A stretch of 64,000 bases of DNA, from positions 352,001 to 416,000 of the forward strand of contig CAWHHI010000011.1 of assembly GCA_963829055.1 (NCBI GenBank). The letters are read 5' to 3'. The notes beneath the pieces are model-generated. The model was not told where the DNA came from. It searched no databases and saw only the letters and a program-made list of their open reading frames with translations. Positions 45 through 63,993 of this stretch are shown piece by piece; the stretch's first letter is position 1, and each line of letters opens with the position of its first letter. The DNA comes from an uncultured Gemmatimonadaceae bacterium. GTDB lineage: Bacteria; Gemmatimonadota; Gemmatimonadetes; Gemmatimonadales; Gemmatimonadaceae. The position numbers were made by a program, and so were the translations under genes.

Positions 45-976
45 TCAGTCTCGGCTCACCGTCCGCGCAGGCCGCTCGTTCACCGTGAGCTGAAAGACGT
101 CGGGCCGGGCGTAGTGGCCGACGACGTCGAGGTCGAGCTTGCCGCGGACGATGTCGTCGAGGTCGATGTCGGCCGTGAGGATGGCTTCCTCGTCGTAGAC
201 AGGACCAGCGATCAGCGCGCCTAACGGGTTCACGATGCAGCTGCCGCCGGCGTCACGATCGCGCCCGGATCGCTCGGTGAGCTCGCCGGGATAGTCGGTC
301 GGATAGTCACTGCGTCGAGCGAACTGGTTGCTGCTCAGCACGAAACAGCGCCCTTCGACGCGCGATGTGCTGCATGCTCGCCACCCAACTCGCGCGGCTG
401 TCGGCCGTCGGCGCGAGATAGAGTTGCACGCCCTTGGCGTACAACGCCGTGCGGTAGAGCGGCATGTAATTCTCCCAGCAGATCGCCGCGCCGATCCTCC
501 CGACGTCCGTATCGAACACGGGCATGGTGCTGCCGTCGCCCTGCCCCCAGACGAGCCGCTCGCTCGCGGTCGGCATCGAGCTTGCGATGTTTCCCGAGGT
601 AGTCGCCGTTAGGCGCGAAGAAGAGCACCGTGCAGTAGAGTGTCCCGCCCTCCCGTTCGATGACGCCGATGACGAGGTGTGTCTCGCTCTCGCGGGCAAT
701 GTCCGCGAGTACGTCGACCGTGGGGCCAGGGACGTCCACGCTCGACTCCCAGTACCGGCGGTACCACTCGCGTCCTTCGGCCGTGCGATTCCCGATGACG
801 GCGCCGAACGTCATGCCGCGCGGATACGCGCTGACGAACGCTTCCGGGAACACGACAAGCCTGGCGCCCTTCCCCGCGGCATCGTGCGTGAGTGATCGCA
901 CCTTGGAGAGCGTGCACTCGCGATCGAAAGCGACGGGCGCTGCCTGCACGACAGCGACGCGGACGGTAGTCGTCAT
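45..976 (-). CDS. Nitrilase (carbon-nitrogen hydrolase family), split by 2 frameshifts
   Basis: Catalytic triad motifs FPEA, HRKL/MPT and ICWENY across ORFs 335-1036, 307-699 and 45-341; C-terminal [10 protein letters not shown]. Confidence 0.9.
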
Positions 977-1054
977 TGACGGGTCTCGATGAGCAAGTCG
1001 GCTTCGCGACGGGCACTGGGGCGGGGTGCGGTACAAGAAAACCCGATCATCGCT

Positions 1055-1513: not shown

Positions 1514-1773
1514 GGATTCCTCCGAGATCGTGGTCGACCCGACGAGAATGCCGGCGACCGCGACCGAGCGCCAGACCCTCCGCGTACCGATCGCGACCCG
1601 GACTGAGAGGTTTACCGCAGCTGCCTAACGGCCACCACAATGGGCGCGACGGGGTAGCACCGTGATGAACCTGTGACGTCCTGCCGTGACTTCGCACGTC
1701 ACTGCCGCCCGACTCGTGGGCAGCGCGGATGACGGAACTCGTGGGTCTGGGCGGGTCCGCTAGGCCACGCGTC

Positions 1774-2751
1774 TCATCGAGCAACGGCTGAACGAAGCGT
1801 GGCGGTCGAGGCATGGAGTGCCGCCTGAGTCGTAGCGGCAAGCATGCGGTATGCGCACGTAGGCCGTAATTCGCCTCTCCCCAATGCAGTACGTTGCGTC
1901 ATTGCCAGCACAGCGGTGCTGGCGGAGGACAACTCGCTCCCTCCGATCGACGTACAGGACGGCACCTTGCTTGGCAGCTTCACATCGGAAATGAACGCGC
2001 TCTGCTCGAGGAGGGCGCGATCGGCCGTCGTTAGGTATGTGTTGGGGTACGTCGTGTAGCCGAACCACATGAGCGCGTACGTGGGGCAGTCGGGTGACCC
2101 CGCCTCGCACGCCGCTGGATGTGGAAGTCCGAGCGCATGGCCAAGCTCATGTCCGAGCCCGCCCACCCATCGGCAGGGTCCCTGATACGCCTCCACCGCG
2201 CCCGTGCAGGTGTTGATCGTCGGCTCGCCTGCGAGGCCGCGAAGGTCGTTGGCGGGAAGCAGAGCGACGCTCGCTGCACCGCCCGTCGCCTGCCCGCATG
2301 CCGGCGCGGCGTCGATGTAGAAGATCCATATGTCGTCCGGGTCGTAAAAGCTCCCACCAGTCAACGCGAAGCCGTCGGCTGTTGCATTGAACCAAAACCA
2401 GAGCGACTGGTCCGTGCCCACCACTGGAGTCGTCGCGTACCAGCTCGCCTCGTGCTCTGTTTGATAAACTGCGACGGTGGGGCTCGCCAAGGTGAACGTC
2501 TCGCCAGTTCCTAGCGCCGTGCTGTACCACGCCTGGAGGTTCACGGCGGCATCGCGAAGGTTTTGAACATAGTCGCCCTGCACCCGGACGCCGGCCGGGA
2601 CCAGGTAGACGATATGTACCTTGGGCGTACTCGTGCGAGTCTTCTCTCCGACCGGCCGCAATGCAGTACTGGAGGTCGTCGGTCCTGTAGCTTGGTCGGA
2701 ACACCCGAAGAGGGCGACGGCGAGCGCGGCACCACAAGCGGACTTGCGCAT
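1774..2751 (-). CDS. Secreted zinc metalloprotease lipoprotein (metzincin-like)
   Basis: Lipobox LFGC; HELGHALGLPH matches HExxHxxGxxH; downstream Met-turn ALM. Confidence 0.8.
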   Translation of the reverse strand: MRKSACGAALAVALFGCSDQATGPTTSSTALRPVGEKTRTSTPKVHIVYLVPAGVRVQGDYVQNLRDAAVNLQAWYSTALGTGETFTLASPTVAVYQTEHEASWYATTPVVGTDQSLWFWFNATADGFALTGGSFYDPDDIWIFYIDAAPACGQATGGAASVALLPANDLRGLAGEPTINTCTGAVEAYQGPCRWVGGLGHELGHALGLPHPAACEAGSPDCPTYALMWFGYTTYPNTYLTTADRALLEQSAFISDVKLPSKVPSCTSIGGSELSSASTAVLAMTQRTALGRGELRPTCAYRMLAATTQAALHASTATLRSAVAR

Positions 2752-3031
2752 ACGGAGCTCACGATTAGGGGCCGCTAATATAAAATGCCGACCCGATACG
2801 ACAAGAGCTAGGCGAACGCCAGTACTCGTTAGGGTATGAAGACGTGCTCCCGCGTTCCCAACGACGAGCGCTTCCAGGCATTGCCGACGCTCGGTTGGCT
2901 CGCCGTCCAAGATTCTGTTCACTTACAATTCGATGCAACGATCGGGTAGGCGAGCCCGTGCGCGCACGCGTCGTCCCGACGACGCGGATTCATCCGACGT
3001 CGATGCCCGAGCGAGTTACGAAGGTGGAGCT

Positions 3032-5813
3032 ATGAAGAAGCGAACGAGAATCATTGCCATCATCGGGACGGTACTCATCGTCCCGCTCGTTGCCCTCGCC
3101 ATTCTGCCGTTCGTCTTCCGCGACCGGATCATCGCGCGCGTGAAGGCCGAGGCGAATTCAGCGATCGAAGCGCGCGTGAATTGGCGGGACGCAGGGCCTG
3201 TCCATCTTCCGTGACTTCCCGAATCTGACGCTGCGACTCGACGATCTCAGCGTCGCGGGAACGCGGCGTTTCGCCGGAGACACGCTCGCCAAAGTGGGGC
3301 GGCTTCAAGTAGTCCTCGATCTCGGCAGCGTGCTGCGGAACGCCCGAGGTGGCGGGCCGATCGTCGTGCGCTCCATCGCGCTCGAACGACCGGTGCTCGC
3401 GCTCCGGGTGCTCGAGGATGGCACCGCGAACTGGGACATTACGAAACCGACGACCGGTGAACAGAAAGCCTCTCGTCCGCTCGCGGTCACCCTCCGCAGC
3501 CTCGACATCAGCAACGCAACGGTCTCGCTAAGCGATCAGAAGGCAGAGCTGTTCGCGACGGTGAACGGCTACCGCCAATCACTCTCCGGCGACTTCGCGA
3601 AGGATCTGTTCACCATCGTGACGCGTGCGCACGCCGATTCGGTGTCGCTCCGCTTCGCCGGGATCCCATACCTCAACCGTGTCGCCCTCGATGTGACCGC
3701 GGACGTCGCTGCGGATATGCGGACGAAGAAGTTCACGTTTGGGAAGAACGAGGTTCGACTCAACGACCTGCGGCTCGGCTTCTCGGGTTCCACGGTTCTC
3801 GCCGATGACCGCACCACGCTGGACATGGCGTTCAGCGCACCAAGCACGAACTTCCGCAGCATTCTGTCGCTGGTGCCGGCGATCTACCTGCACGATTTCC
3901 AGACAATAAAGACGTCCGGCGCCGTCGCGGTCTCCGGTAACATTAAGGGTGACTACGGGAAGCAGGCGTTCCCCTCGTTCGCGGTGAACGCGAAGGTCAC
4001 GAACGGTGCGTTCCAGTATCCCGACCTTCCGCTCCCGGCGCGCGACATCGCCCTCGAGCTCGCGATCCGAAATCCCGGCGGCAACGTGGACAGCACGCTG
4101 GTGCAGCTCGACCGCTTCCACGCGAGGATCGGGAGCCAGCCCATCGATGGCGCGCTCGTGCTCAGGACGCCAGTCTCCGATCCGGATGTCGATCTCCGCC
4201 TAACGGGGAAGCTCGACCTCGCAGACGTGCGCAAGACAGTGAAGCTCACCGGCGTCGACGAGCTCACCGGACAGATCGGCGCCGACGTCGCCGTGCGAAC
4301 CCGCATGTCGTACGTCGACCGCAAGCAGTATGACCGGATCGCGGCGCGCGGCACCATTGACGTTCGCAATCTCGCGCTCAAGAGTGCGGACCTGCCGCAT
4401 CCGCTTGCCATCACGCAGGCGTCACTCCAGCTCACTCCACAGCGCGCGGAGCTCAAGTCATTCGCCGGCACGATCGGCAGCAGCGACATGCGGCTGTCCG
4501 GCTATCTCGAGAACCTGCTCCCGTTCGCGCTGCGCGGCGACCCGCTGCGCGGCAGCGCCACGTTCGCCAGTCAACACTTCGACCTCAACGAATGGCAGTC
4601 GGACGACAGCCTGAAGGTCATCGAGGTGCCGGCGAACATCGACTTCGCGCTTCAGGCGACGGTCGCGGAGCTGTTGTACGGCAAGCTCACAATGACGAAC
4701 GCGCGCGGCGGGCTCCGCGTGAAGGACCAGCGGGCCACGCTGGAGAATTTCTCGATGAACACGCTCGGCGGACAGATCGGCGTGAGCGGCTTCTATGAGA
4801 CCACCGATGTGACGAAGCCGAAGTTCGATGTCGACCTCGCGATGAAGGAGGTAGACATTCCGACCGCGGCGGCGAGCCTGACGACTGTCCAGTTGTTGGC
4901 GCCAGTAGCTCGCTTCGCACGCGGCAACGTCTCGACCGATCTCAAACTGAGCGGCTTGCTCGGCAAGGACATGCTGCCGCTGTTCAACGTGCTGGATGGC
5001 CGGGGCTCGCTCCGAACATCCGAGCTGATGATTCAAGGGCTGCCGATTCTGATCAAAGTGGCCGACGCGCTCAAAATCGAACGACTGCGAAGCCCGACGC
5101 TCGATGCCGTGCGAGCCTCCATACGGATCCAGAACGGTCGGCTGAACGTGAATCCGTTCGACGTGAAGATCGGCCAGTCCTCGATGCGAGTAGAAGGGTC
5201 GAACGGCATCGATCAGTCGCTCGACTACACCCTGCACCTTCGCGTTCCCCGGTCCGAGCTTGGAGCGGACGCGAACCGAGTCGTCGCGGGCCTCATCTCG
5301 CGGGCGGGCAAGACCGGGCTGGATCTACAGGCGGCCGAAGTCGTCAATCTCGACGTCAAGGTCGGCGGTACCCTAACGAGTCCCACGATCCAGACGAACC
5401 TCGGTGACGTCGTGGCATCGGCCGGCGAGAGCGTAAAGCAGGCGGCGCAGAAGGAGATCGCCGAGCGGGTGGATTCCCTGAAGCAGCGCGCCGACTCGGC
5501 TACGGACGAGGCGCGAAAGAAAGCGCAGGCGGAGGCCGAACGTCTGATCGCCGACGCAGAGCAGCAGGCCGCGCAAATCCGCGCCGAGGCGCAACGTGTT
5601 GCAGACGGCGTTAGGCGCGAGGCGGCCGCGAGGGCGGACACGCTCGTCGCGCGAACAACGAACCCGCTCGCGCAAGCCGCTGCCCGTGTCGCGGCCACCC
5701 GAATGAAGAAGGAAGCCAACGATAGGGCGGACGGGATCCTCCGAGAGGCCGACAAGAAGGCCGCCGACCTCGTCGCCGAGGCGAGGAGGAAGGCGGCCAG
5801 CATCAGCGGGTAG
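3032..5813 (+). CDS. AsmA family protein, frameshift near 3200
   Basis: N-terminal TM helix, long beta-rich body, coiled-coil tail; ORFs 2933-3214 and 3294-5813. Confidence 0.8.
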
Positions 5814-5851
5814 ACGTCGCGTTCGTTCTCGCGTTAGGCCGATGCGAAACG

Positions 5852-6908: not shown

Positions 6909-7838
6909 TCACCCCAATGCCAGCGACTGGTGCGCGGAGATCCCGGCCGTCACTCCGTCCGCGGACGCCCACGTCGCGTTGTGCGGTACACGCGCGGCGT
7001 CTCCGGCGGCATACACGCCAGGTACCGTTGTCAACTTCATCGCGTCCGTGCGGATCACTGGACCGAACGGACCGTCGTCGAACTCACAGCCGAGCTGCTC
7101 GGCAAGCGGACTCGCCATGCGCGTTCGCGAGGCGGTGAAGAGCGCGTCCAGGCCAACGAGCTGATCGCCGTCCGCGCCAGTCACACGGACGCCGGCGAGC
7201 GTTAGGCCATCTCCCATGACAGCGGTAACCGGCCGCGCGTCGATGCGTACACCGCGAGCCGCGAGCGCATCCAGTTGCGCCGCGTCGAGGTCGAAGGTGC
7301 CACCCGTAAACAACGTGACGTCCGCGCTCCAGTCAGGGAGCAACAGGGCCTGACGGATGCTGTGCTCCGATACGGCGAGCACACCGAGCCGTCCATCGGA
7401 CACCTCGTAGCCATGGCAGTACGGGCAATGGAGGACGCTCCTCCCCCAACGCTCACGAAGCCCCGGGATGTCGGGCAGGTCATCGATAATGCCAGTCGCG
7501 AGCACGAGCCGCTTCGCGCGCGCGGTCCTGCCCGATGCAAGCGCGACGTCGAACAGGGCGTTAGGCGTCGCCGCAATCGCCGACGCCTGCATGGCTTCGT
7601 CGGCTCGAAACTCGACCGTCGGGTAGGCGAGGACCTGCGCACGGGCGGTTTCCAGGATCTCCGCCGGCGTGCGCCCATCCTGTCCGAGAAAGCCATGGGA
7701 CGCATGCGCGAACCGGTTGCGCGGCAACCCGGCGTCGACGACGAGGACCCGCCGGCGCGCCCGGCCCAACTGCATCGCGGCCGAGAGTCCGGCGAAGCTC
7801 CCACCGACTACAACGGCTTCGTATGTGTCACTCGGCAT
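6909..7838 (-). CDS. NAD(P)/FAD-dependent oxidoreductase, thioredoxin-reductase-like
   Basis: VVGGSFAGLSAA, LATG, HCPYCHG, VYAAGD. Confidence 0.9.
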   Translation of the reverse strand: MPSDTYEAVVVGGSFAGLSAAMQLGRARRRVLVVDAGLPRNRFAHASHGFLGQDGRTPAEILETARAQVLAYPTVEFRADEAMQASAIAATPNALFDVALASGRTARAKRLVLATGIIDDLPDIPGLRERWGRSVLHCPYCHGYEVSDGRLGVLAVSEHSIRQALLLPDWSADVTLFTGGTFDLDAAQLDALAARGVRIDARPVTAVMGDGLTLAGVRVTGADGDQLVGLDALFTASRTRMASPLAEQLGCEFDDGPFGPVIRTDAMKLTTVPGVYAAGDAARVPHNATWASADGVTAGISAHQSLALG

Positions 7839-10903: not shown

Positions 10904-11519
10904 TCACGGCTTCTTCTTCGGCGGCGGCTTGACCCGGCCCTTCGCGTCGAGGTTCTCGAAGCCGCCTCGGATCTTTCGCACGTAGCCCAGTGTCTCGCGG
11001 TACCGCCAGCGCGGCACGTTAGGCGCGACGGTCTCCACGCTGCTCCACGCACGCCGGTCGAGGGAGTGTTGCGACACAGGCGCGCTGCGCGTTCATGATC
11101 GTCCCCTCGCCGGCGTTGTAGCTCGCGAACATGAACTCCTTGCGATCGACGTCGATGGAGTCGCGCTCCCAACGGCGCCACAATCCACGGTCGTGCATGA
11201 TACCGGCCGCAATGTTCCACTCCGGGTCGTCGATGGATCCAAACGTGGACGACCGCGACGTGATTTCCTTGTACGTGGACGGCATGAGTTGCATGAGGCC
11301 ACGCGCGCCAACCCAGCTGCGCGCGTTAGGGTTCATCTCGCTCTCGGCCATCGCCTGCGCCTTGAACAGGCGCCAATCGTACCCGACGCCGAAATACCGC
11401 TTGCTGTACTTGCGGAACGTGTCGTCGTACCGGTCGGCGTCGCGCTTCGTCTGCGCGACGACAGGCGTGGGAGGAATGGCACACAGCACGACAAGGCCGG
11501 CGACGAGACGATGGATCAA
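10904..11519 (-). CDS. Lytic transglycosylase (SLT/MltF-like catalytic domain), frameshifted near C-terminus
   Basis: AQAMAESEMNPNARSWVGARGLMQLMP, ASYNAG, ETLGYV. Confidence 0.88.
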
Positions 11520-11824: not shown

Positions 11825-12616
11825 CTAATGATGGTCGCCCCAGACGTCGGTATCAAACACGTTGGCGTGCACCATCCAGTTGAAGACCACCGGCAGGAAG
11901 CGGCCGTTCACGGCATCGCAGGCGTCCTGGGTCGCGACAGGGCTCATCGGCCCGAACACCGGCTTCCCGTCGCTGACCTCGAGCCATCGTACCTGCTGCG
12001 TGAGTCGCGGGACACACATGTTCGTGTGGAGGTGCCACCGGGCAATCCCGAGGGGAACGCGTGCGTCGAGCTCCTCGGGCGACGCATCCTTGGGCGCCGT
12101 GTACATCGCGCCGACGAGGCTGAACGATCCGTCCGCGTGCTTCCGGTAGAGCAGCGAGGATGGCCTCGCGACGTCGAAGACGAAATGCTCGCGAACGGCT
12201 GCGCCGCAGGCTCGTGAAGTGGTACACGTCCTGGGGCACGTTAGGCGCGAACATGCGGTACCCCTCGCGCTCGGCGACGTGCACGTCCTTGTACTTCTGC
12301 GAGCGCGGCGCGGGCGTCGACGACGATCTGCGCGGCGCGGGCGGAGTCCGCGGCGCTCGCCGCGCGCTCGGGCGACATGCGCATGTGCGGATTCGCCTTC
12401 ATCACGCCGCTCATCGCGTCGTTGACGGCGTGGCCCGGATCGGAGGCGTCCGCGCCTCTGGTCGGTGTCCGCGACCCCGACGTTGGCGACGGCGTAGATG
12501 TGTGGCGATGCTCGCCGGATTGCCCGGCCGCCGTTCCGGACGTGAGAACGGCGGAAAGCATGACGACAGCGAGGCACTCGATCGAGCGCCGGCAGAACGG
12601 GGCCATTGACGCTCCC
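11825..12616 (-). CDS. Secreted His-rich hypothetical protein, frameshifted
   Basis: Signal peptide; GAMYTAP, WHLHTNMC and WMVHAN across overlapping ORFs. Confidence 0.6.
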   Translation of the reverse strand, partial: GSVNGPVLPALDRVPRCRHAFRRSHVRNGGRAIRRASPHIYAVANVGVADTDQRRGRLRSGPRRQRRDERRDEGESAHAHVARARGERRGLRPRRADRRRRPRRARRSTRTCTSPSARGTACSRLTCPRTCTTSRACGAAVREHFVFDVARPSSLLYRKHADGSFSLVGAMYTAPKDASPEELDARVPLGIARWHLHTNMCVPRLTQQVRWLEVSDGKPVFGPMSPVATQDACDAVNGRFLPVVFNWMVHANVFDTDVWGDHH

Positions 12617-15726: not shown

Positions 15727-15792
15727 ACTCGACCTAACGAGTGCAGTCGCGTGGAGTGATGTCGACCCGCCGGGGCGACCATGGACGCGTCA

Positions 15793-34330: not shown

Positions 34331-34399
34331 GCTGCCCGTAGTGGCCGAAGCGCGCCGACTCGTCCAGCGTTAGGCACCCGGAGCAGCCCAGCGCCGCAG

Positions 34400-43214: not shown

Positions 43215-43487
43215 AACCTCTCGCTTGCGAATTCGATCCACCGACGTTCGGCCGGTGGAATCACCCACACAAGTGCCGCACCGTCACGCAACAGACATGC
43301 TGCTGACCTGCTGACCTAACGCGGTAACGGCGAGACACACGTGATTTTGGTTACCGACTGGCGCATCGGAGAGAACGGCCATCATCTCCATGGGAACGCG
43401 TGCATCCCCGAGACGCGGCGCCGCTGGCGGCGGCGCTCGCGCCGATGCAACATCCGGGCGCGGCTGCCATTCACGCAACCATCCTCA

Positions 43488-48103: not shown

Positions 48104-48200
48104 CGTGGTGTGCTTCCAAAATATTCTGAAGCAGCGAGCGAGTCCAGCGATCGGACCTCGTTGCGCGCACGCCCCAGCCTGATACCCGCGTTAGGTCCAG

Positions 48201-50435: not shown

Positions 50436-50439
50436 CCGC

Positions 50440-51175
50440 CTAACGGATTCTGGTGGGCGCGAAGACCGTCACGGGTGACCCGTCAGCGACGAACGCCGAT
50501 CGTACCGGGCTGCGAAGCACCTGCGCGAACTCCGCGCCGTAGACCGGCTCCACGTTGCCGTCGAGTCGCGCGTCGACCGCGCTCCAGACGTTCCAGCGGG
50601 GATGCTGTACGCGGTATTCGACGGTGCCGCCGTCTCGCTGGCGGGTGTAGCCCCAGTAGTGCTCGGTGATGAACTCCTCTTCGGAGCCTACCTCGAGCGT
50701 TCTTGCCGCGCCCGTCGTGCGGGCTGAGAGGCGAGTCCACGCGCCGTTCGATCGCCACGCGTACTCCCGCTCGACGCACGTCACCGGGCTGAGAATCGTG
50801 GCGATGCCGCATGGGCAGCGCGCGGTACGGCTCGTTGTACAGCAGCCGGGCGACCACGGCGATAGCGGGACGCGGAACGATCTCGCGGACGAAGACCACG
50901 CCTCGACGCACCTCGTTCCCGACCTCGCGGCGAACGTAGAAGCGCAGGTTCACCTCCTCGAACGTCCGGTGCCACGGGATCGGTAGCCCAAGCACGCGGG
51001 TGTCGCGGAAGAGGAATCCGACGACGCTGACGTACAACGTTCCGCGCCAGCGATCCATTTCGACGCCCGCGGGTAGCAGCGGGGCGAGCAGCGCTGGCGC
51101 CACCTCGTAGTTCACCATCACGAGGTCTCGCCACTCGGCGCGGAGGAACGGGCGTTCGCTTGCTGGGTCGCTCAA
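50440..51175 (-). CDS. DUF2071 (YqjF-like) protein, 1 frameshift
   Basis: AEWRDL, FEEVNLRFYV, FITEHYWGY, VQHPRW. Confidence 0.85.
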
Positions 51176-52981: not shown

Positions 52982-53006
52982 ACGCCGCGAGCGGCGCCTA
53001 ACGAGC

Positions 53007-53309
53007 CTAACGCCCCGACAGCAGACGGCCGCGACGTGGCGGCTTCCGTCCGGTCACGCGTGTCCAGCCAGCGGCCGCGCCTCGCCGGGCGGCCAACTGC
53101 GCGACACTCACGAGCACGCCCGTGATCGCGCTCCACGCGACTGCCTTTCCCCAGCTCGTGGTCGACGCGTCGGGATCGATCGGCGGCTCCTCGTCGCGAA
53201 TCGCCCGCCAGCCGCCTTCGATCAACCCTGTCGCCGCAGCGCCCGCGGCCATCGCGGATCCAGCACCCACCAACATCCACGTCACGCGCTGCTTTCGTCG
53301 TTTGTTCAC
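53007..53309 (-). CDS. DUF4235-like protein
   Basis: GWRAIRDEEPP, AVAWSAITG, ARRGAAAGW. Confidence 0.7.
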   Translation of the reverse strand: MNKRRKQRVTWMLVGAGSAMAAGAAATGLIEGGWRAIRDEEPPIDPDASTTSWGKAVAWSAITGVLVSVAQLAARRGAAAGWTRVTGRKPPRRGRLLSGR

Positions 53310-53548: not shown

Positions 53549-53709
53549 TGGTGGACCTCCCTGAAATGAGCTGAGCACGAACCCGAACGATGAGCCCGTT
53601 CGAGAACGATCACTCCGCGTAATGGACCAGCTCGACAGAGTGCGGCATGCGTCGTGCCCGTTAGGCGCCCTTCCCTCTGCACACGCCTGACAGCCGCACG
53701 CGGAGTCCC

Positions 53710-54108: not shown

Positions 54109-55008
54109 TCAGCCTGCGATGCTCGGCGCCATGCCCATGGAGTGGTAGCCCTTGTCGACGTAGATCGTCGTGCCGGTGATGCCTGACGCGAGCGGGCTCG
54201 CGAGAAACGCCGCGGTGACGCCGACGTCCATCGGCGTCAGCTCGCTCGTGAGCGGCGAGTTGGCCGAGCAGTACTCGACCATGCGCTCGATGATGCCGAT
54301 GGCGCTCGCGGCGCGCGACGCGAGTGGGCCGGCGGAGATGGTGTTGATGCGAACGCCCCACTTGCGGCCGGCCTCGTAGGCGAGCGTCCGCGTGTCGCTC
54401 TCGAGCGCCGCTTTCGCCGACGACATTCCGCCGCCGTAGCCCGGGATCACGCGCTCGCTCGCCATGTACGTGAGCGAAACGACCGACGCGTTAGGCCGCA
54501 GCAGTGGACCCGAGCCGACTCACGAGCGAGATGAGCGAGTACGCGCTCACGCCCACGGCGGCGAGATAGCCCGATCGCGACGTCTCGAGCAGCGGCTTCT
54601 TGACCTCCGGGCCGTTCGCCAGCGAGTGCACGACGAATGTCGAGTGCCGGGGTTCCGAAATCACTCGTCAGGCGCGTCGCGAGCCCGTCGATCGAGAAGT
54701 CGCCGACGCTCGCGATAGCGCTTGTTCGTGCGGATGTCCTCGGGGGCGTCGGCGAGCGTGTCGAACGCGGCGTCGAGCGGATAGATGCGCTCGAACTCCA
54801 TCAGCGAGCCGTTGCCGAGTCGACGGGACTCGTCGAGCTTCCCGCGCTCGAGCAGATTCATGAAAATGTTGAGCGCCGGCGGCCACGTGCCGACGCAGAC
54901 CGACGCTCCGGCCTCGGCGAGCGCCTTCGCGATGGCGAACCCGTATCCTGCATCGTCGGCGACGCCGGCGACCAGCGCGCGACGGCCGGTGAGATCGATG
55001 GCTAGCAT
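54109..55008 (-). CDS. fabI: Enoyl-ACP reductase, plant/chlamydial type, frameshifted
   Basis: [55 protein letters not shown]. Confidence 0.9.
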
Positions 55009-56754: not shown

Positions 56755-58282
56755 AGCCACTGGCTCGACGCCTCAGCCGGCAGCGAACGCTCTCGTTCGT
56801 GCTGGTGGCGGCGTGCGCTGGCCCGACGGAAGCGCAGCTGCCGGCGCAGGCGTCGAAGTCCGCCGCCACGACGGTGCGCGTCGAGGTGAACGCCGCCGCG
56901 GCGCATCAGGTGATGGAGGGGTTCGGCGCGACGACCGCGTCGCTCATCTATCAGAACGGCGCCGACGACAAGGTGCCGGCGGCGCTCCGCACGCGCGCCG
57001 TGCAGGCGGTGTATCGGCGACGTCAAGCCTGACGCTCGGCAACGTGTCGCTCGGCCAGTGGGAACCGGCGAACGATGACGCGGACCCGATGCATCTGAAC
57101 GAGCCGGCGTTCGAGGTGGCGGGGCTGCAAGCGGTCAACGAGAAGCTGCTGGCGCCGGCGCGCGCGTTAGGCGCCGATGGGCTCTACCCCGGCAACGTCA
57201 TCAGCATGGACGCGACCGAGTGGCTCAAGCCGCTCCGCGCGAGTTCGAACTACAATCGCTACATCGACGAGTGCGCCGAGTACGTGGTGAGCGCGGTGCT
57301 CAAGTGGCGGGACGTGACGGGCCAGATTCCGCGTTACCACGCACTGTTCAACGAAGCGATCTGGGGAAATCAGGAGCTCAAGGGCGGGAACACCGAAGGA
57401 GATCATCGGACATCATCAAGCGCGCCGGAGCGCAGACTGCGCTCGGCCGGTATGCCGACCAGGTTCGTGATCGCGTCGGAGTACTCTGCCGCGCAGTCGG
57501 CGGCGCTGTCGAAGGAGATTCTCGCCGACCCGGACGCGAGGCAGTACGTGGGCGCGATCGGGTATCACCCGTACCCGTACGGGTCGGCCTACTCGAGCAT
57601 GCCGGTGATTCTCGCCGGCGCGGGTGCGGGTCGTCCGGATCCGGCCGCGCTCGCGGATCGCCGGCGCTTCGCGACCTCGGGCGCCAGTACAACGTTCCGG
57701 TGTGGATGACGGAGGTGTCGCACGGCGAGCTCGATCCGCGGACGATGGACGCGCTGCGCGCGCGGGCGATCCAGATTCACGATGAGCTGGCGTACGCGGA
57801 TGCGAGCGCGTTCTTCGGCATGCACGCGATGTGGGACAGCAAGTCGAACTCGGAGCACTTCGGTGCGGGGCGGTCGCTGCTCAAGGAGGAGGACACGATC
57901 GTGCTGATCGACGTCGACGCCTCGTCGGTGTTGATCACGGGGACGGGGTATGCGATCGGGCACTACGCGCGGTGGGTGCAGCGCGGCGCGTTGCGGGTGG
58001 AGGCGACGAGCGACGATCCGCTGGTGATGGTGAGCGCGTTCACGAACCGGAAGACGTGGCAAGGCGTCGTTCGTGATCATCAACAAGCGATGCGGCGTCG
58101 AAGACGGTGCGCGTGCACGTGAGCGGGGCTGACGTTCACGGGGCCGTTGACGGGCGAGCAGTCGTCGGGCGACGCGCGGTGGAAGGCGTTAGGCGCGGTG
58201 GCGCTGGATGGGGATGCGAAGGACGCGTTCGTGGTTACGGTGCCGGGGAAGTAGCGTCACATCCCTGGGTGGTAAGTACTGA
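56751..58282 (+). CDS. Secreted GH30-like glycoside hydrolase, frameshifted
   Basis: QVMEGFG, ALFNEA, GYHPY, VWMTEV, AIGHYARWV. Confidence 0.75.
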
Positions 58283-58343: not shown

Positions 58344-58360
58344 GACGGCGTCAGGTAGAT

Positions 58361-58398: not shown

Positions 58399-58414
58399 GG
58401 CAGACCAGTGAGCG

Positions 58415-61400: not shown

Positions 61401-63993
61401 CGGCTGCTCGAGCGAGCGCGCCGGTGAACGCGTCAGTGGATGCGAGTGATCCAGCCGTCACCTGATAGGTGAGCGTCGGGTCGGCGTTGCCGTAGACTTT
61501 CGTCTGCGGGTCGGCGGTAACCGTGATCGGGCGAGTGGTGATCGTCAGGTTCGCCGATACGAATGCGAGGGTGTAGTTGGAACCTGCAGAGAGGGTTCCG
61601 ATCTGTGATCGCGTAGGTGCCGACGTTCTCACCTGCGACGCGGGTGAGCGCGCCAGTGAACGCGTCACCAGTCGGCGAGCGTCCCGGTCGTCAGCGTGTA
61701 GGTGAACGCCGGATCGGCGTCGCCGTACACCTTCGTGGCGGCGTCTGGCGGTGACAGTCAGCGGGCGAGCGGTGATCGTCAGGTTCGCGCCGACGTAGTT
61801 GAGCAGGTAGTTGGCACTCGGCGTGACGGTGCCCTGCAGAATCGCGTAGGTGCCGACGGGTTCGCCGGCCACACGCGTGAGCGCGCCAGTGACGGCGTCG
61901 CTGCCGACGAGTGGTCCGCCGCTCACGACGTAGGTCAGCGCCGGGATCGGCGTCCCCGTAGACCTTCGTCGGCGGCGTTGGCCGTGATCGTCAGCGGCCG
62001 CTGTGTGATCGTGAGGTTTGCGCCGACGTACGTGAGCGTGTAGTTGCGTTCACGCGCCAGCGTGCCCTGGTGGATCGCGAAGGTGCCGACGTTCTCACCG
62101 GCAGCTCGGGTGAGTGAACCGCTGAACGCATCGCCGCGGACGAGCGGACCGCCGCTCGTGATCTGATACGTCAGCGCCGGGTCGGCGTTGCCGTAGACCT
62201 TGGTCTGTGCGTCAGCGGTGACGGTGATTGCGCGCGTGTTGACCGTGCAGCGACTGCGCGCTGCTCGTTGCTGCCGAGGACTGCGCGCCCGCGATCGTCA
62301 CGGCGGCGATAGTCTCGTGCCGGCGGCTGGCTGTCGCCGGGCAGCGACGACGTTGACGATAGCGTTGCGACACTGATCGGCGTTCACTGGTCGTGCGGAG
62401 CCGATGGTCGGGCCCGCGTCGACCGTGAAGGTCACGGTCGCCGTGCCGACCGTGCGCCGACTCAGCTGTGCGCGTCAGGTCGAGACTGAGCGTTGCTGAC
62501 CTGCGCGTGAGCTCGTAAGGTCACCGACGTGGGCTCGACGCTGACAGCGGTTAGCGTAGTCGCTACGATCGCTGGAGCGCGGTGGTCTCGTTGCGGCCGC
62601 ACCGCTGCTGCTGCCGGTGAACCCAGCGTTGCCCGTGGGCGTCTGGCCAGACCGAGCGTCGAGTGCGTGAACGAGAACGCTGTTGAGCGCTGCCGGCGGG
62701 ATCGTCACGCTCGTCACGGCGATTCCGGCGCATCCGTTCCGGTAAACGTCGCCGGCGCACGTTGCGCTGAACGCGCCGGAAGCCCGCTGGCTGTGACAGT
62801 GGCGGTCACGAGCCATTTCCGTTGGCAGTTTCCCGAGTTGGTGACGCGTTGAAGCACCGTACGTCACGGAGTTGCCAGGCACGACGCGGCATTCGGCTGC
62901 CACGCAGCCGAGGACGCTGACACGTCTGGGTTGGCCGTCGGTGAACGTCGCTTGCGCACGCTGCCCACTGCTCTGTCCGACGGCCGTCAGGACGAAGCGG
63001 ACATCCAACGTCGTATTCCGCCGGGCGCGAAGTCCGTAGTTCGTGATGTTACCGCTCCCGTCAGCGGTGGCCGTCAGCTCCGTGTCCGCTTCGCGGAGCG
63101 GATCCATGTGCAGCGTCAGCCTCACCGTTTCGCCCGGCTGCCAACCAGTCCCGGTGATCATCACCGTCGTCGCCCGGCGCGTAGTCGTCCTTGTCGGTCC
63201 GGACCGTCGCGCCACTCGCGTTCCCGGCCTCCATCGTCACCAGCACGACCTGGCCACCCTGCGCCGTTCCCGTCTGACCAACGGCGTCCAGGCTCACTCC
63301 GGCGGCGCCGTTAGGCACCTGGAATCCGAACGTCGCCATGTTGTCGTACACGATCGGCCCAGCGCCCGACGTCAGAATCGTCGTCGCGCGCGGGTTCAGC
63401 GCGCGCACGCTGTTGTAGATCAGCAGCGCCGGATCCGACGTCACCGGCAGCGGCGTGATCGCCCGCACCCAGTCATAACGCGATCCTGACGTTCGCCGAC
63501 GCATCCAGCAGCGCCACGAGGCCCGGCCCCTTCGCCGCACCGAACGCGCCACCGGCCCAGCCGACCAGGTTCTGGATCAGCGCGTCCTTCATCGCCGCGA
63601 TTCGTCGCGCCCTGATCAGGACTCCCCGACCACATCGCGATCCGCCCGATCAGCGCCGCCTTGAGGTGCTCCACCACCTCCGGGTCGCGCAGCTTCGCGT
63701 ACGGCTGCGACGTCGCGCCATCGGCGAGCGACGGCACGACGAACACCGAATACGTGAACAGGTCGACCGTCTTGAGGTCGACCGTCCCGCCGGTGCCGTC
63801 GTAGCCGCGGTCCACGCCTAACGGGTAGGCCGGACCGGTCAAGGCATTGACGATGTTCGTTGCATCCGGTCGCGTCGACGGTCACCGGGCAGTACACGAG
63901 GGCTTTCTGGGCTCGTACGGCCGCTGGCATGGTGACCATGCCTAACGTGACGCCGACGAGCAGCGCGAGGCGCCGGGGGAGGAGTCGCATCAT
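58415..63993 (-). CDS. Large secreted surface protein with 12 MBG-2-type repeats and a PKD-like C-terminal region, many frameshifts
   Basis: Signal peptide; repeats KVYG(D/N)ADPALTY...AGENVGTYAI at about 234-bp period, 59620-62190; C-terminal VYDPNGGFVTGGGWI. Confidence 0.85.

What the first reader, a model, noticed from the sequence alone, without database searches (positions are those of the whole stretch)
220..63947. Over-represented non-palindromic heptamer CCTAACG/CGTTAGG across the whole window: candidate undescribed DNA signal
Seen: by eye I count at least 53 exact copies, about 1 per 1.2 kb. CCTAACG (29) starts at 220, 1624, 4199, 5372, 15733, 16457, 16902, 21233, 21877, 25467, 26375, 31410, 31527, 32647, 35067, 35643, 39055, 40071, 40461, 41132, 43315, 44471, 46010, 48697, 50439, 52997, 53006, 63817, 63941. 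CGTTAGG (24) starts at 607, 2029, 2827, 5609, 5832, 7200, 7559, 11017, 11324, 12239, 19447, 23890, 29501, 31000, 33732, 34368, 37681, 42225, 48189, 53659, 54489, 57165, 58187, 63309. A rough independent-base estimate at ~69% GC (GC estimated by eye) gives about 7 copies, and TA-containing words are otherwise scarce here. Most CTAA/TTAG words I noticed lie in this heptamer. Within genes it occurs in several frames (TTA-GGC Leu-Gly, CCT-AAC Pro-Asn, CTA-ACG Leu-Thr) and forces rare codons, so the constraint acts on DNA rather than protein. Established: Chi and KOPS are strand-skewed, HIP1 is palindromic, and DUS/USS are non-palindromic and unskewed. Inference: an uptake-sequence-like signal, a nucleoid-protein binding site, or a methyltransferase/repair-driven iterated motif in this lineage.
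Basis: partly seen in the sequence, partly recalled or inferred. Interest (0 to 1): 0.9.

Follow-up and report, generated by a model that had tools for sequence, protein, structure and literature searches.

The report
Hyper-abundant integron-core DNA word
This soil bacterium and many of its relatives have written one eight-letter DNA word about once per kilobase into genes and spacers alike, in the way Neisseria and Haemophilus carry their DNA-uptake tags, and the word turns out to be the core sequence of the recombination sites of these bacteria's own integrons.

Summary
All 53 listed copies are exact (3 expected by shuffling). Genome-wide there are 6,391 copies in 7.78 Mb, the strongest 7-mer outlier: 18-26x over low-order Markov models, 42-71x over a background with the word masked, and at least 11x over synonymous-codon shuffles. 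The full word is GCCTAAC(G>A).

It behaves like an uptake sequence (USS/DUS):
- no strand or replichore bias;
- all four stop-free frames used, through rare codons;
- encodable peptides enriched;
- a deficit of close neighbours, so spacing is even;
- orthologous sites conserved about 3x above background;
- no conserved flanks.

It is dense in 67 of 201 sampled genomes of the family (probably Gemmatimonadaceae) and near-absent in the rest of the phylum.

New here: the word is identical to the inverse-core/core site (RYYYAAC/GTTRRRY) of the integron attC sites found in carriers and non-carriers of this order. The dispersed copies are not attC sites. Integrase presence and type do not track the word, nor does any methyltransferase.

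Best reading (0.4): an uptake- or transfer-biased self tag whose specificity matches integron cassettes. This scan found the same word before in another genome (e1-7736590). My literature searches found no description of it.

The parts
220..226 (+). copy, GCCTAACG form; outside my crude ORF calls
607..613 (-). copy, GCCTAACG form; outside called ORFs
1624..1630 (+). copy, GCCTAACG form; outside called ORFs
2029..2035 (-). copy, ACCTAACG form; outside called ORFs
2827..2833 (-). copy, CCCTAACG form; outside called ORFs
4199..4205 (+). copy, GCCTAACG; read nnC-CTA-ACG (Leu-Thr) in AsmA-like ORF
5372..5378 (+). copy, CCCTAACG; read nnC-CTA-ACG (Leu-Thr)
5609..5615 (-). copy, GCCTAACG; antisense, read nnC-GTT-AGG (Val-Arg)
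5832..5838 (-). copy, GCCTAACG; outside called ORFs
7200..7206 (-). copy, GCCTAACG; read nnC-CTA-ACG in Pyr_redox_2 ORF
7559..7565 (-). copy, GCCTAACG; read CCT-AAC-G (Pro-Asn) in Pyr_redox_2 ORF
11017..11023 (-). copy, GCCTAACG; outside called ORFs
11324..11330 (-). copy, CCCTAACG; outside called ORFs
12239..12245 (-). copy, GCCTAACG; outside called ORFs
15733..15739 (+). copy, ACCTAACG; outside called ORFs
16457..16463 (+). copy, GCCTAACG; antisense, nnC-GTT-AGG (Val-Arg) in TPR ORF
16902..16908 (+). copy, GCCTAACG; antisense, nCG-TTA-GGn (Leu-Gly) in TPR ORF
19447..19453 (-). copy, GCCTAACG; read nnC-CTA-ACG
21233..21239 (+). copy, GCCTAACG; its TAA ends ORF 20248..21237; my caller reads it CCT-AAC-G in another frame (frame uncertain, assembly has indels)
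21877..21883 (+). copy, GCCTAACG; outside called ORFs
23890..23896 (-). copy, GCCTAACG; antisense, nCG-TTA-GGn (Leu-Gly)
25467..25473 (+). copy, GCCTAACG; its TAA ends ORF 23420..25471; alternative frame CCT-AAC-G
26375..26381 (+). copy, GCCTAACG; antisense, nCG-TTA-GGn in Ser/Thr kinase ORF
29501..29507 (-). copy, GCCTAACG; antisense, nCG-TTA-GGn in TPR ORF
31000..31006 (-). copy, GCCTAACG; antisense, nCG-TTA-GGn in MacB-like permease ORF
31410..31416 (+). copy, CCCTAACG; CCT-AAC-G (Pro-Asn)
31527..31533 (+). copy, ACCTAACG; CCT-AAC-G (Pro-Asn)
32647..32653 (+). copy, CCCTAACG; its TAA ends ORF 31824..32651; alternative frame nnC-CTA-ACG
33732..33738 (-). copy, GCCTAACG; nnC-CTA-ACG
34368..34374 (-). 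copy, GCCTAACG; nnC-CTA-ACG in Lhr helicase fragment
35067..35073 (+). copy, TCCTAACG; antisense, nnC-GTT-AGG in Lhr fragment
35643..35649 (+). copy, GCCTAACG; antisense, nnC-GTT-AGG in Lhr fragment
37681..37687 (-). copy, GCCTAACG; outside called ORFs
39055..39061 (+). copy, GCCTAACG; CCT-AAC-G; kept in G003
40071..40077 (+). copy, GCCTAACG; outside called ORFs
40461..40467 (+). copy, GCCTAACG; its TAA is the stop of a called ORF
41132..41138 (+). copy, CCCTAACG; CCT-AAC-G; kept in G001
42225..42231 (-). copy, GCCTAACG; its TAA ends ORF 42227..43015(-); not kept in G003
43315..43321 (+). copy, ACCTAACG; kept in G005
44471..44477 (+). copy, GCCTAACG; kept in G005, replaced by CCTCACG/GCTGACG (synonymous Leu) in G001, G002, G003
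46010..46016 (+). copy, GCCTAACG; antisense nnC-GTT-AGG in amidohydrolase ORF; kept in G005, G001, G002
48189..48195 (-). copy, ACCTAACG; outside called ORFs
48697..48703 (+). copy, ACCTAACG; antisense nCG-TTA-GGn in PIG-L ORF; not kept in G005
50439..50445 (+). copy, GCCTAACG; nnC-CTA-ACG in DUF4126 ORF; kept in G005, G001, G002
52997..53003 (+). copy, GCCTAACG; first of two direct copies 9 bp apart; kept in G005
53006..53012 (+). copy, GCCTAACG; second of the pair; not kept in G005 or G003
53659..53665 (-). copy, GCCTAACG; kept in G001
54489..54495 (-). copy, GCCTAACG; CCT-AAC-G; kept in G002, G005, G001, not in G003, G014
57165..57171 (-). copy, GCCTAACG; antisense nCG-TTA-GGn; kept in G002, G005
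58187..58193 (-). copy, GCCTAACG; kept in G002, not in G005
63309..63315 (-). copy, GCCTAACG; CCT-AAC-G
63817..63823 (+). copy, GCCTAACG; outside called ORFs
63941..63947 (+). copy, GCCTAACG; outside called ORFs

Best explanation
GCCTAAC(G>A) is a lineage-wide 'self' DNA word. It accumulated by point substitutions under a transmission bias (molecular drive), not under per-site selection. The most likely source of the bias is sequence-preferring DNA uptake, or another sequence-biased horizontal DNA transfer, followed by homologous recombination, as for the USS of Pasteurellaceae and the DUS of Neisseriaceae.

The preferred word is the inverse-core / core sequence of the attC sites of this order's integrons. 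The same preference would therefore also favour import of integron cassettes, which chromosomal integrons can recruit from transforming single-stranded DNA.

Shown here: the hyper-abundance, its DNA-level nature, the USS-like genomic statistics, the clade distribution, and the identity to the attC core.

Inferred: that a DNA-uptake or transfer step reads the word, and that the match to attC is functional rather than historical.
For: Abundance:
- 6,391 copies in 7.78 Mb, one per 1.2 kb. PMC1939737 (passage) gives 1,471 copies for H. influenzae and 1,965 for N. gonorrhoeae; PMC7811141 (summary) gives a USS spacing of about 1,000 bp.
- It is the top 7-mer outlier: O/E 18.1 (order 1), 25.7 (order 2), 8.9 (order 3), and 42-71 with a masked background.

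DNA-level force:
- A synonymous-codon shuffle gives 251+106 copies against 2,008+2,130 observed.
- CCT-AAC is used at 60% of Pro-Asn-(Gnn) sites, against 9% otherwise.
- The rarest Leu codon, TTA, is used at 27% of [SPTA]-Leu-Gly sites.
- PN[VADEG] tripeptides are 1.73x their reverse-order control and [SPTA]LG 1.27x. PMC2817400 (abstract) reports about a doubling for USS/DUS.

Orientation:
- 3,154 forward and 3,237 reverse copies.
- In 50-kb windows with positive GC skew there are 1,172 + and 1,260 - copies; with negative skew, 1,771 + and 1,750 -.
- 1,962 copies are sense and 2,089 antisense to called ORFs.

Spacing:
- 6.4% of gaps are under 200 bp, against 14.9-17.5% for 12 control 7-mers of equal abundance.
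- The chance of meeting the next copy rises from 0.2/kb beside a copy to about 1/kb beyond 500-800 bp.
- In G014 the CV of gaps is 0.72, against about 1.0 for seven unrelated control 6-mers; the eighth word drawn lies inside the motif itself and also gave 0.72.

Conservation and flanks:
- 18 of 29 orthologous site-by-genome comparisons are conserved among congeners at 75-81% identity, against 22.8% of all 7-column windows. Gains and losses are synonymous.
- Between genera, 16 of 39 G000 sites are conserved, against a 12.8% background.
- There is no conserved flank beyond -1 and weak +7/+8, so this is not a mobile repeat.

Distribution:
- All 7 genomes of the genus carry it.
- By my hand tally, 67 of 201 family genomes have at least 80 copies of the 8-mer per Mb, and 34 have at least 300 per Mb.
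- Of 119 genomes elsewhere in the phylum, only G323 is mildly raised.

Uptake machinery:
- ComEC in 31 of 31 genomes, ComEA-type HHH_3 in 31 of 31, PilM in 200 of 201.

Link to integrons:
- The few copies in non-carriers sit as the R'' box of about 100-bp attC sites in cassette arrays next to integron integrases.
- A finder that did not use the word found 14 attC sites beside intI in 11 genomes; 12 have GCCTAAC at one end.
- The second enriched form, GCCTAACA, is the reverse complement of the R' form.
- Natural transformation feeds cassettes to chromosomal integrons (PMC12614218, abstract).
Against: - No uptake experiment exists. My two searches for natural transformation or uptake sequences in Gemmatimonad bacteria found nothing relevant.
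- The competence genes are present in carriers and non-carriers alike, so they explain nothing about who carries the word.
- No candidate receptor was found. ComP_DUS has no match in G000, which is 85.9% complete.
- Close pairs are avoided here (2.3% of gaps under 100 bp), and only 28 opposite-orientation neighbour pairs lie within 60 bp (13 +/-, 15 -/+). In H. influenzae 23% of USS lie within 100 bp of another (PMC7811141, passage).
- One-off variants are mostly at or below expectation, whereas I recall decayed USS being common; that is recall, not checked.
- The match to the integron core could point to an intracellular reader instead.
- The evidence that foreign DNA lacks the word is weak. 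The three long word-free stretches look like chimeric contig ends.
Confidence: 0.4

Rival explanations
1. The dispersed copies are genome-wide double-stranded sites read by the integron integrase. They would act as high-affinity 'attG-like' landing or binding sites, and would be kept because they channel or buffer cassette recombination.
For: - The word fits GTTRRRY/RYYYAAC exactly (definition in PMC3053210, passage).
- It equals the R'' 8-mer of local attC sites.
- The family is unusually rich in integron integrases: 114 of 201 genomes over the curated cut-off, in 60 of 77 genera, against 0 of 14 control genomes.
- G000 has an intI and an attC-like array.
- Integrases insert cassettes at double-stranded genomic sites (bioRxiv 10.1101/2022.09.11.507474, passages).
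Against: - Integrase presence does not track the word. By my hand tally, 48 of 67 carriers and 79 of 134 other genomes have a match at E<=1e-40. Dense carriers G002, G004, G065, G099, G123, G147 and G198 have none, and in G014 the gene is broken into three frames.
- Integrase type does not track it either. Carriers and non-carriers interleave on the IntI tree, and the label is no more clustered than in 286 of 500 shuffles.
- Reported attG sites need only GWT, whereas here all 7-8 positions are nearly invariant.
- Integrase chemistry cannot create sites by point substitution.
- Per-site selection on about 6,000 sites, many at rare codons, would have to be implausibly strong.
- Landing pads inside genes would be harmful.
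Confidence: 0.2
2. The word is the binding site of another abundant intracellular protein, unrelated to uptake: a nucleoid-structuring factor, or a self-marking site for a defence or repair system.
For: - The even spacing with short-range exclusion over a few hundred bp is what a lattice of bound complexes would give.
- Both orientations are equally used.
- Karlin's old proposal for USS was of this kind (PMC1939737, passage).
- A family-wide operon of an Eco57I/MmeI-like methyltransferase and an SNF2 helicase exists. It could read asymmetric words.
Against: - No candidate protein co-distributes with the word. That operon is in carriers and non-carriers alike, and it follows species relationships in every region of the protein.
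- Selection per site would be weak, yet the word overrides codon preference and shifts amino-acid usage.
- This reading does not explain the identity with the attC core.
Confidence: 0.18
3. The word is made abundant by a methyltransferase together with a very-short-patch-type repair bias, as has been proposed for HIP1.
For: Asymmetric 6-8-bp words containing adenine are typical targets of type IIG, type III or BREX methyltransferases (recalled). One Eco57I-like enzyme is present in every genome examined.
Against: - Carriers G066 (96% complete) and G188 (89% complete) have no match to PF00145 or PF01555. G188 and G014 have none to PF02086. The non-carriers G124 and G033 have more methyltransferases than their carrier congeners.
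- No single one-off variant is drained. Transition neighbours are at 0.36-1.8 of expectation, and 6,391 copies exceed what any single neighbour could supply.
- A repair bias does not predict the deficit of close neighbours.
- Vsr itself was not searched for.
Confidence: 0.05
4. The word is a Chi- or KOPS-like polar signal for recombination or chromosome segregation.
For: It is a short, non-palindromic, over-represented word.
Against: - There is no skew with GC skew (Spearman -0.17; counts 1,172/1,260 and 1,771/1,750) or with gene orientation (Spearman -0.03).
- Per-contig counts are near-equal on the two strands.
- The apparent '+ only' runs in the listing were a listing artefact; fetched DNA has both strands equally.
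- An over-representation of 40x or more is far above what I recall for Chi.
Confidence: 0.03
5. The word is an assembly or basecalling artefact.
For: The window's assembly does contain errors. Genes are split (Lhr, a MacB-type permease, chorismate synthase). Contigs from independent runs agree with each other against the window on 1-bp indels.
Against: - The stop-containing phase is almost never found inside continuing coding signal: 20 sites, against 937 and 320 for the two open phases. A frame-blind error would not avoid it.
- Alternatives at orthologous sites are synonymous codons.
- The word is equally dense in over 60 other genomes, many in hundreds of contigs.
- Frame changes across the word (15.9%) are close to those at random positions (11.6-13.7%).
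Confidence: 0.01

Closest known systems
DNA uptake sequences: USS of Pasteurellaceae and DUS of Neisseriaceae
   Same: - Short non-palindromic word at about one per kb.
- No orientation bias.
- Found in coding and non-coding DNA.
- Reading-frame preferences.
- Encodable peptides enriched.
- Relatively even spacing.
- Shared by related species, with variant forms (GCCTAACA; GCATAACG in G030).
comparison values from PMC1939737, PMC2817400 and PMC7811141 (passages read).
   Different: - A different phylum (Gemmatimonadota).
- No uptake experiment, and no receptor known.
- Close pairs and inverted terminator pairs are avoided rather than common.
- Only 7-8 informative positions with almost no flank signal.
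- Densities form a continuum, from about 80 to 1,340 copies per Mb across genera.
- The word equals an integron recombination core.
Integron recombination sites: attC core (GTTRRRY) and inverse core (RYYYAAC), and genomic attG sites
   Same: The word fits the consensus exactly. It is the R'' 8-mer of attC sites found next to integron integrases in this order. G000 has its own integron.
   Different: - The dispersed copies lack the attC palindrome, L boxes and array context: 0 candidates in the window and 3 loci in the genome.
- They sit inside conserved genes through synonymous changes.
- They do not co-vary with integrase presence or type.
- Reported attG sites need only GWT (bioRxiv 10.1101/2022.09.11.507474, passages).
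HIP1 (GCGATCGC) of cyanobacteria
   Same: A hyper-abundant, clade-specific word written into genes, with an unknown function. PMC5861425 reports 15- to 300-fold over-representation; I saw only the abstract line in a search listing.
   Different: HIP1 is a palindrome and has been linked to methyltransferases (recalled). This word is asymmetric, and no methyltransferase tracks it.
Chi and KOPS
   Same: Short asymmetric over-represented words.
   Different: Those are co-oriented with replication. This word is not.

Membership tests
DNA uptake sequences (USS/DUS) | Competent cells preferentially take up DNA that carries the word | not testable with these tools
   Needs uptake assays in a cultured carrier.
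DNA uptake sequences (USS/DUS) | Hundreds to thousands of copies of a short non-palindromic word, about one per kb, far above expectation | tested here: met
   6,391 copies in 7.78 Mb. O/E is 18-26 against low-order Markov models and 42-71 with a masked background.
DNA uptake sequences (USS/DUS) | [quoted passage not shown] | tested here: met
DNA uptake sequences (USS/DUS) | Present inside genes in several frames, with enrichment of the peptides it can encode | tested here: met
   All four stop-free frames are used: 1,172, 790, 1,505 and 584 copies. PN[VADEG] is 1.73x and [SPTA]LG 1.27x their reverse-order controls. Gene calls are crude.
DNA uptake sequences (USS/DUS) | More even spacing than random | tested here: met
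   Unlike USS, very close pairs are rare.
DNA uptake sequences (USS/DUS) | Under-represented in newly acquired DNA | tested here: inconclusive
   Three stretches of 31-50 kb lack the word, but they look like chimeric contig ends. In G000's cassette array region, the copies whose flanks I read lie at attC-like sites.
DNA uptake sequences (USS/DUS) | Competence machinery present (ComEC, ComEA, type IV pilus) | tested here: met
   It is equally present in non-carriers, so it is not discriminating. In G000 the ComEA match is only an 81-aa fragment.
Neisseriaceae DUS specifically | ComP-type minor pilin receptor (PF16732) | tested here: not met
   No match at E<=0.1 in G000, which is 85.9% complete.
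Integron attC site | Core GTTRRRY / inverse core RYYYAAC sequence | tested here: met
   GTTAGGC / GCCTAAC fit. Consensus from PMC3053210 (passage).
Integron attC site | Imperfect palindrome of 57-141 bp between inverse core and core, in cassette arrays next to intI | tested here: not met
   Window: 0 candidates. Genome: 80 pair hits counted on both strands, of which 6, at 3 loci, have terminal symmetry. Real attC arrays with this core exist elsewhere.
Integron-read genomic sites (attG-like) | Occurrence tied to an integron integrase | tested here: not met
   48 of 67 carriers have a match, against 79 of 134 others (hand tally). The IntI tree is not clustered by carrier state.
Integron-read genomic sites (attG-like) | Recombined by IntI | not testable with these tools
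   Needs recombination assays.
Chi / KOPS polar words | Strand skew co-oriented with replication | tested here: not met
HIP1-like methyltransferase-linked words | Palindromic word with a co-distributed methyltransferase | tested here: not met
   The word is asymmetric. Methylation itself is not testable here.
REP / MITE-type dispersed repeats | Conserved sequence beyond the core | tested here: not met
   Information content outside positions -1 to +8 is 0.05 bit or less.

The most novel reading that the evidence does not exclude
A large clade of Gemmatimonadaceae uses the integron attC core as a DNA-uptake (or transfer) signal. If so, this would be the first uptake sequence outside Proteobacteria. 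It would also be the first case in which uptake specificity is tuned to gene cassettes. Carriers would preferentially import both their own clade's DNA and the soil cassette pool, and molecular drive would have painted the integron core across their chromosomes. As a by-product, every gene is flanked by integrase-type core sites, which could make these genomes a source of new cassettes.
Probability: 0.25. Interest if true: 0.95.

Novelty: new variant of a known kind. Interest (0 to 1): 0.85.

Why it matters
Sequence-tagged 'self' DNA is experimentally established only in two proteobacterial families. A third, phylogenetically remote case in abundant soil bacteria would show that the phenomenon is general. 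Its graded densities across dozens of genera, and its congeneric carrier/non-carrier pairs, would give a natural series for studying how such tags arise and decay.

The identity of the tag with the integron core site is unexpected. It links two fields, natural transformation and integrons, that have only recently been connected experimentally.

It also bears on an old open question, where gene cassettes come from. These genomes carry an integrase-type core site about every kilobase in both orientations.

Practically, the word is a sharp marker for binning and for spotting chimeric contigs in Gemmatimonadota metagenome assemblies.

Tried and rejected
- A full-text search for the heptamer itself returned 1,452 papers. 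The 15 listed were unrelated primer or oligonucleotide hits, so it was uninformative.
- The search for related loci with a thioredoxin-reductase-like window protein returned mostly Proteobacteria. The taxon therefore rests only on the two best named hits, a Gemmatimonadaceae MAG at 74% and Longimicrobium at 66%.
- Runs of '+'-only rows in the listing suggested strand polarity in some genera. Fetched DNA showed both strands equally, so this was rejected.
- A self-BLAST for IS-type repeats found only 68.7 kb of repeats, mostly contig-end overlaps. It was not informative on mobile DNA.
- Read laying printed 40 of 864 base differences, none inside a copy. I cannot state per-site support from it.
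- Tandem Repeats Finder and an ORF search on the array of G021 found nothing. Reading the flanks showed attC sites instead.
- My first attC finder, which required terminal symmetry of at least 12 of 20, missed known sites. It was replaced by a fold-based one.
- Five of the 30 IntI rows sat on a branch of length 2.5 with odd composition. They were probably translated from the wrong strand. I did not redo them and ignore them.
- Gene-content contrasts gave nothing that tracks the word: ComEC, ComEA, PilM, five methyltransferase families and IntI.
- The search of earlier findings by place returned nothing for this genome.
- I did not attempt structure prediction, complex prediction or the large protein searches, because no candidate reader emerged.

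Full report
**1. The observation**

One search finds 53 copies at exactly the coordinates listed: 29 as CCTAACG on the + strand and 24 as CGTTAGG. One hundred dinucleotide-preserving shuffles gave a mean of 3.0 and a maximum of 8. The window is G000:C11:352001-416000, from a 7.78-Mb assembly of 20 contigs with 66-67% GC.

Genome-wide there are 6,391 copies, spread over all 20 contigs with near-equal counts on the two strands. Among all 7-mers it is the strongest outlier. O/E is 7.2 (order 0), 18.1 (order 1), 25.7 (order 2) and 8.9 (order 3). The signal disappears at orders 4-5 only because the sub-words carry it. With the copies masked out of the background, the expectation is 90-151, so O/E is 42-71. 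Of all CTAA words, 72% lie in the heptamer.

The logo adds one position. Position -1 is G in 78% of copies and A in 13%. There are weak preferences at +7/+8 and nothing further out. This is therefore a free-standing 8-mer, GCCTAACG, not part of a longer repeat.

**2. A force acting on DNA, and real DNA**

I made crude ORF calls: 5,522 ORFs covering 74.6% of the genome. They are imperfect because the assembly has indel errors (section 10).
- 4,051 copies lie inside called ORFs, in all four stop-free frames: CCT-AAC-G 1,172; nnC-CTA-ACG 790; nCG-TTA-GGn 1,505; nnC-GTT-AGG 584. None lies in the two frames that would read TAA or TAG.
- 2,340 copies lie outside ORFs or at ORF edges.

Shuffling synonymous codons within each ORF gives 251+106 copies, against 2,008+2,130 observed in ORFs. 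That null is itself inflated by the rare codons the word supplies.
- CCT-AAC encodes 60% of Pro-Asn followed by a G-starting codon, and 9% otherwise.
- CG-TTA-GG encodes 27% of [SPTA]-Leu-Gly.
- CTA-ACG encodes 23% of Leu-Thr after a C-ending codon, and is not among the eight commonest encodings (each at least 2.1%) after other codons.

The proteome is shifted too. PN[VADEG] is 1.73x its reverse-order control and [SPTA]LG 1.27x.

The word also supplies stop codons: 230 of 689 TAA stops and 187 of 1,447 TAG stops of called ORFs.

A gene-call-free test uses the GC3 phase of the 180-bp flanks. Where coding signal continues on both sides, the stop-containing phase occurs 20 times, against 937 and 320 for the open phases. 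A frame-blind sequencing error could not do that. Frame changes across the word (15.9%) are close to those at random positions (11.6-13.7%).

**3. Genomic statistics**

There is no polarity. In 50-kb windows with positive GC skew there are 1,172 + and 1,260 - copies. With negative skew there are 1,771 + and 1,750 -. The correlation with gene orientation is -0.03.

Neighbouring copies avoid each other.
- 6.4% of gaps are under 200 bp and 2.3% under 100 bp. For 12 control 7-mers of equal abundance the figures are 14.9-17.5% and 7.4-10.4%.
- The chance of meeting the next copy rises from 0.2/kb next to a copy to a plateau near 1/kb beyond 500-800 bp.
- In G014, which is twice as dense, the CV of gaps is 0.72, against about 1.0 for seven unrelated control 6-mers. 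The eighth word drawn, CGTTAG, lies inside the motif itself and also gave 0.72.
- Close inverted pairs are rare: 13 +/- and 15 -/+ neighbour pairs within 60 bp.

One-off variants are at 0.36-1.8 of expectation, with these exceptions: CCTAACA (462 copies, 10-12x), CCTAACC/T (2-4x), CATAACG (820 copies, about 5x) and CCTAAGG (65 copies, 1.1-2.9x).

**4. Relatives**

All 7 genomes of the genus hold 3,400-6,700 copies of the 7-mer. G014, from another genus of the same family, holds 9,004 in 5.1 Mb. Most other relatives hold 10-230, below the reversed-word control.

A scan of 201 genomes of the family for the 8-mer shows a continuum. By my hand tally of that table, 67 genomes have at least 80 copies per Mb and 34 have at least 300 per Mb. 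The rest have 1-60 per Mb, usually far below the control.

Carrier state can differ within a genus. G124 has 66 copies, against 3,479-4,141 in G066, G166 and G198. G033 has 173, against 858-1,991 in G103, G151 and G188.

Of 119 genomes from other families of the phylum, only G323 is mildly raised: 726 copies against a control of 293.

Samples of fetched DNA:
- G014 (254 kb): the same word and the same flanks; 479 copies, O/E 27.8.
- Non-carrier G008 (400 kb): no hyper-abundant word at all, and 8 copies where 8.2 are expected.
- G010: the word is the top outlier at low density.
- G030, from another family: mild enrichment, plus the variant GCATAACG.

On a weakly resolved PilM tree of 61 genomes, 22 carriers form one cluster that includes the window's genus and G014. 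Other carriers (g47, g55, g62, g48) lie elsewhere, and well-supported branches force at least 4-5 changes of state.

The tallies include genomes flagged unpublished (G013, G051, G052, G150, G255, G282). Of these only G052 is among the carriers.

**5. Orthologous sites**

Syntenic DNA of four congeners (75-81% identity) and of G014 was aligned to window 38,900-58,900. In 18 of 29 site-by-genome comparisons the word is kept, against 22.8% of all 7-column windows. Where it differs, the alternative is a synonymous codon (TTA against CTC/CTG; CTA against CTC/CTG). Relatives also have copies where G000 has none.

Between genera (44 kb aligned, 70.9% identity), 16 of 39 G000 sites and 16 of 82 G014 sites are shared, against a 12.8% background. 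Sites are thus both conserved and turning over, in each lineage separately.

**6. Comparison with uptake sequences**

From passages I read:
- H. influenzae has 1,471 USS and N. gonorrhoeae 1,965 DUS. Of these, 65% and 35% lie in ORFs. They are non-palindromic, commoner in non-coding DNA than expected, without orientation bias, and significantly evenly spaced (PMC1939737).
- USS/DUS roughly double the tripeptides they can encode, and they show frame preferences (PMC2817400).
- USS spacing is about 1,000 bp. Even distribution is an expected outcome of molecular drive by biased uptake. However, 23% of USS lie within 100 bp of another (PMC7811141).

The present word matches every genomic criterion except the last. 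The general uptake genes are present: ComEC in 31 of 31 genomes, ComEA-type HHH_3 in 31 of 31, PilM in 200 of 201. They are present in non-carriers just as in carriers. The Neisseria receptor family ComP_DUS has no match in G000.

**7. The methyltransferase option**

Five DNA methyltransferase families were searched in two carrier/non-carrier congener pairs plus G014.
- Carriers G066 and G188 have no PF00145 and no PF01555 match.
- G188 and G014 have no PF02086 match.
- The non-carriers G124 and G033 have more methyltransferases.

The only enzyme common to all five genomes is a protein of about 1,070 aa of the Eco57I/MmeI type, followed by an SNF2 helicase. Its sequence follows species relationships in every region: G066-G124 58% and G188-G033 59%, against 48-52% across genera. 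Nothing here supports a methylation- or repair-driven origin. Vsr was not searched for.

**8. The word is the integron core**

In non-carrier genomes of the sister family (G021, G265, G268) the few copies cluster on one strand, every 500-650 bp (listings). Reading them shows classical attC sites. The word GCCTAACG is the R'' (inverse core) box. About 90-120 bp further on comes TGTTAGGC, the R' (core) box, with complementary L boxes between them.

Integron integrases over the curated cut-off lie beside the arrays: G265:C23:3689-4633 and G268:C109:1315-2277. The consensus RYYYAAC ... GTTRRRY is the textbook definition of attC (PMC3053210, passage).

To avoid circularity I searched the 1.5-kb flanks of integrase genes with a finder that uses only that degenerate consensus plus a hairpin. 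It found 14 attC sites in 11 genomes, both carriers and non-carriers. Twelve have GCCTAAC at one end. The exceptions are G011 (GTCTAAC) and G075 (GCCCAAC).

The second most enriched form in carriers, GCCTAACA, is the reverse complement of the R' form.
- G000: 462 copies of its 7-mer CCTAACA, 10-12x.
- G014: 31 against 1.7 expected.
- G179: 9 against 0.19 expected.
- G008: not enriched.

A random hyper-abundant 8-mer would contain a 7-mer fitting this consensus with a probability of about 0.4%, and the exact local form with about 0.02% (my arithmetic). I therefore take the match as meaningful.

**9. The dispersed copies are not attC sites, and the integrase does not explain them**

The window has no attC-like candidate. 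The genome has only 3 loci with terminal symmetry, out of 80 inverse-core/core pair hits counted on both strands. In addition there is one integron: intI at C20:208041-208958 (265.7 bits), with attC-like sites at about C20:200.7-207.2 kb.

Integron integrases are remarkably common in the family. 114 of 201 genomes are over the cut-off, in 60 of 77 genera, against none of 14 control genomes. But they are found in 48 of 67 carriers and 79 of 134 other genomes (hand tally). Several of the densest carriers lack a match or have a broken gene. On an IntI tree, carriers and non-carriers interleave (five rows, probably mistranslated, ignored).

**10. Reading**

A force strong enough to install about 6,000 copies against codon preference, in several lineages separately, with diminishing returns for a second copy nearby, is most simply a transmission bias. 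The only documented kind for short words is sequence-biased DNA uptake followed by recombination. That reading has no experimental support here, and no reader has been identified.

The identity with the attC core suggests one of two things:
- The uptake or transfer specificity is tuned to integron cassettes. Chromosomal integrons can recruit cassettes from transforming single-stranded DNA (PMC12614218, abstract).
- An integrase-like protein reads the sites inside the cell. Integrases do act on double-stranded genomic attG sites, though these need only GWT (bioRxiv 10.1101/2022.09.11.507474, passages).

My odds: uptake- or transfer-biased tag 0.4; integrase-read genomic sites 0.2; another intracellular reader 0.18; methyltransferase/repair 0.05; polar Chi-like signal 0.03; artefact 0.01; the rest unknown.

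**11. Is it known?**

Searches:
- the heptamer itself: 1,452 papers, and the 15 listed were unrelated primer or oligonucleotide hits;
- 'Gemmatimonad' with 'uptake sequence': 0 papers;
- 'Gemmatimonas' with 'natural transformation': 6 irrelevant papers;
- 'Gemmatimonad' with 'methylation motif': 2 papers, with no sign of relevance in their titles or abstracts; I did not read them.

None of these searches found a description, though subscription journals are not covered.

Within this scan, the same word was reported on another genome of the order: about 1,400 copies, reader unknown, said to occur in a cultured strain (note e1-7736590). I did not test the cultured-strain statement. As far as I can see from that note, the integron identity, the family-wide census, the spacing analysis and the gene-content contrasts are new here.

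**12. Quality of the assembly**

Several genes are split: Lhr, a MacB-type permease and chorismate synthase. Near-identical strains occur in 20 runs from 16 soil, rhizosphere and sediment studies. Contigs from four of these runs agree with each other against the window on 1-bp indels. The window therefore carries indel errors. These affect my ORF calls, and hence the coding/non-coding split and some frame assignments, but not the counts of the word.

Noticed in passing
G000:C6:5440-55038, G000:C11:1-44055, G000:C6:591808-623330 (all outside the window): Three stretches of 31-50 kb have no copy of the word at all. They are tetranucleotide outliers (98.8th-100th percentile). They carry housekeeping genes (ftsK, aroC, DAHP synthase, rpe, folD, pepA) that have divergent second copies (47-59% aa identity) elsewhere in the genome. 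The two inner junctions I could check (C6 near 55 kb and C11 near 44 kb) lie in sequence duplicated on other contigs. They are probably chimeric contig ends from another organism, and the word works as a chimera detector.
   Followed up: yes
window 30387-33346, 34269-37475; also 44065, 44097, 44106, 45323, 53563, 53864, 53992, 54002, 58255: Genes are split into pieces (a MacB-type permease, the Lhr helicase). Contigs from independent public runs agree with each other against the window on 1-bp indels. The assembly has indel errors, which fits its 85.9% completeness despite having only 20 contigs.
   Followed up: partly
G000:C20:200700-208958: The genome has its own chromosomal integron. An integrase gene lies on the - strand (265.7 bits, just over the cut-off). 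Several attC-like sites beginning with the word lie beyond its 3' end, which is an unusual, convergent arrangement.
   Followed up: partly
family scan: Integron integrases are extremely common in this family: 114 of 201 genomes over the curated cut-off, often 2-5 per genome, against 0 of 14 control genomes. On the IntI tree they do not follow the species groupings, which suggests frequent transfer.
   Followed up: partly
G000:C8:73509-76755; L186:2885-6295; L189:3272-8781: An operon is conserved in all five genomes examined and in G000. It encodes an Eco57I/MmeI-like methyltransferase of about 1,070 aa (with DUF7814) and an SNF2/ResIII helicase of 763 aa. It appears vertically inherited, and in G000 it is broken by frame shifts. 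Its function and target are unknown.
   Followed up: partly
L148-L157 (G030), G000 genome-wide: The variant word GCATAACG is enriched in G030, a different family (9 copies against about 1 expected). Its core CATAACG is enriched in G000 (820 copies, about 5x). This may be a 'dialect'.
   Followed up: no
L262:3196-3293 (G075): One attC site next to an integrase uses a different core pair (GCCCAAC / GTTGGGC). attC cores are therefore not uniform in the family.
   Followed up: no
window 52997-53012: Two direct copies lie 9 bp apart in a stretch outside called ORFs. This is one of only 6 gaps under 10 bp in the whole genome. Only the first copy is kept in G005.
   Followed up: partly
G000 genome-wide: Other mildly over-represented longer words probably belong to a dispersed repeat family unrelated to this finding. 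Examples are GGATGACA, TCATTCCGA, AGTCGAGGAA and TCCGAGCGGA, at O/E 1.6-2.1 against maximal-order Markov models.
   Followed up: no
G000:C18:97493-97547: An inverted pair of the word flanks a near-perfect GC-rich hairpin, 55 bp in all. It looks like either a terminator or a minimal attC-like element. It is one of only three such loci in the genome.
   Followed up: no
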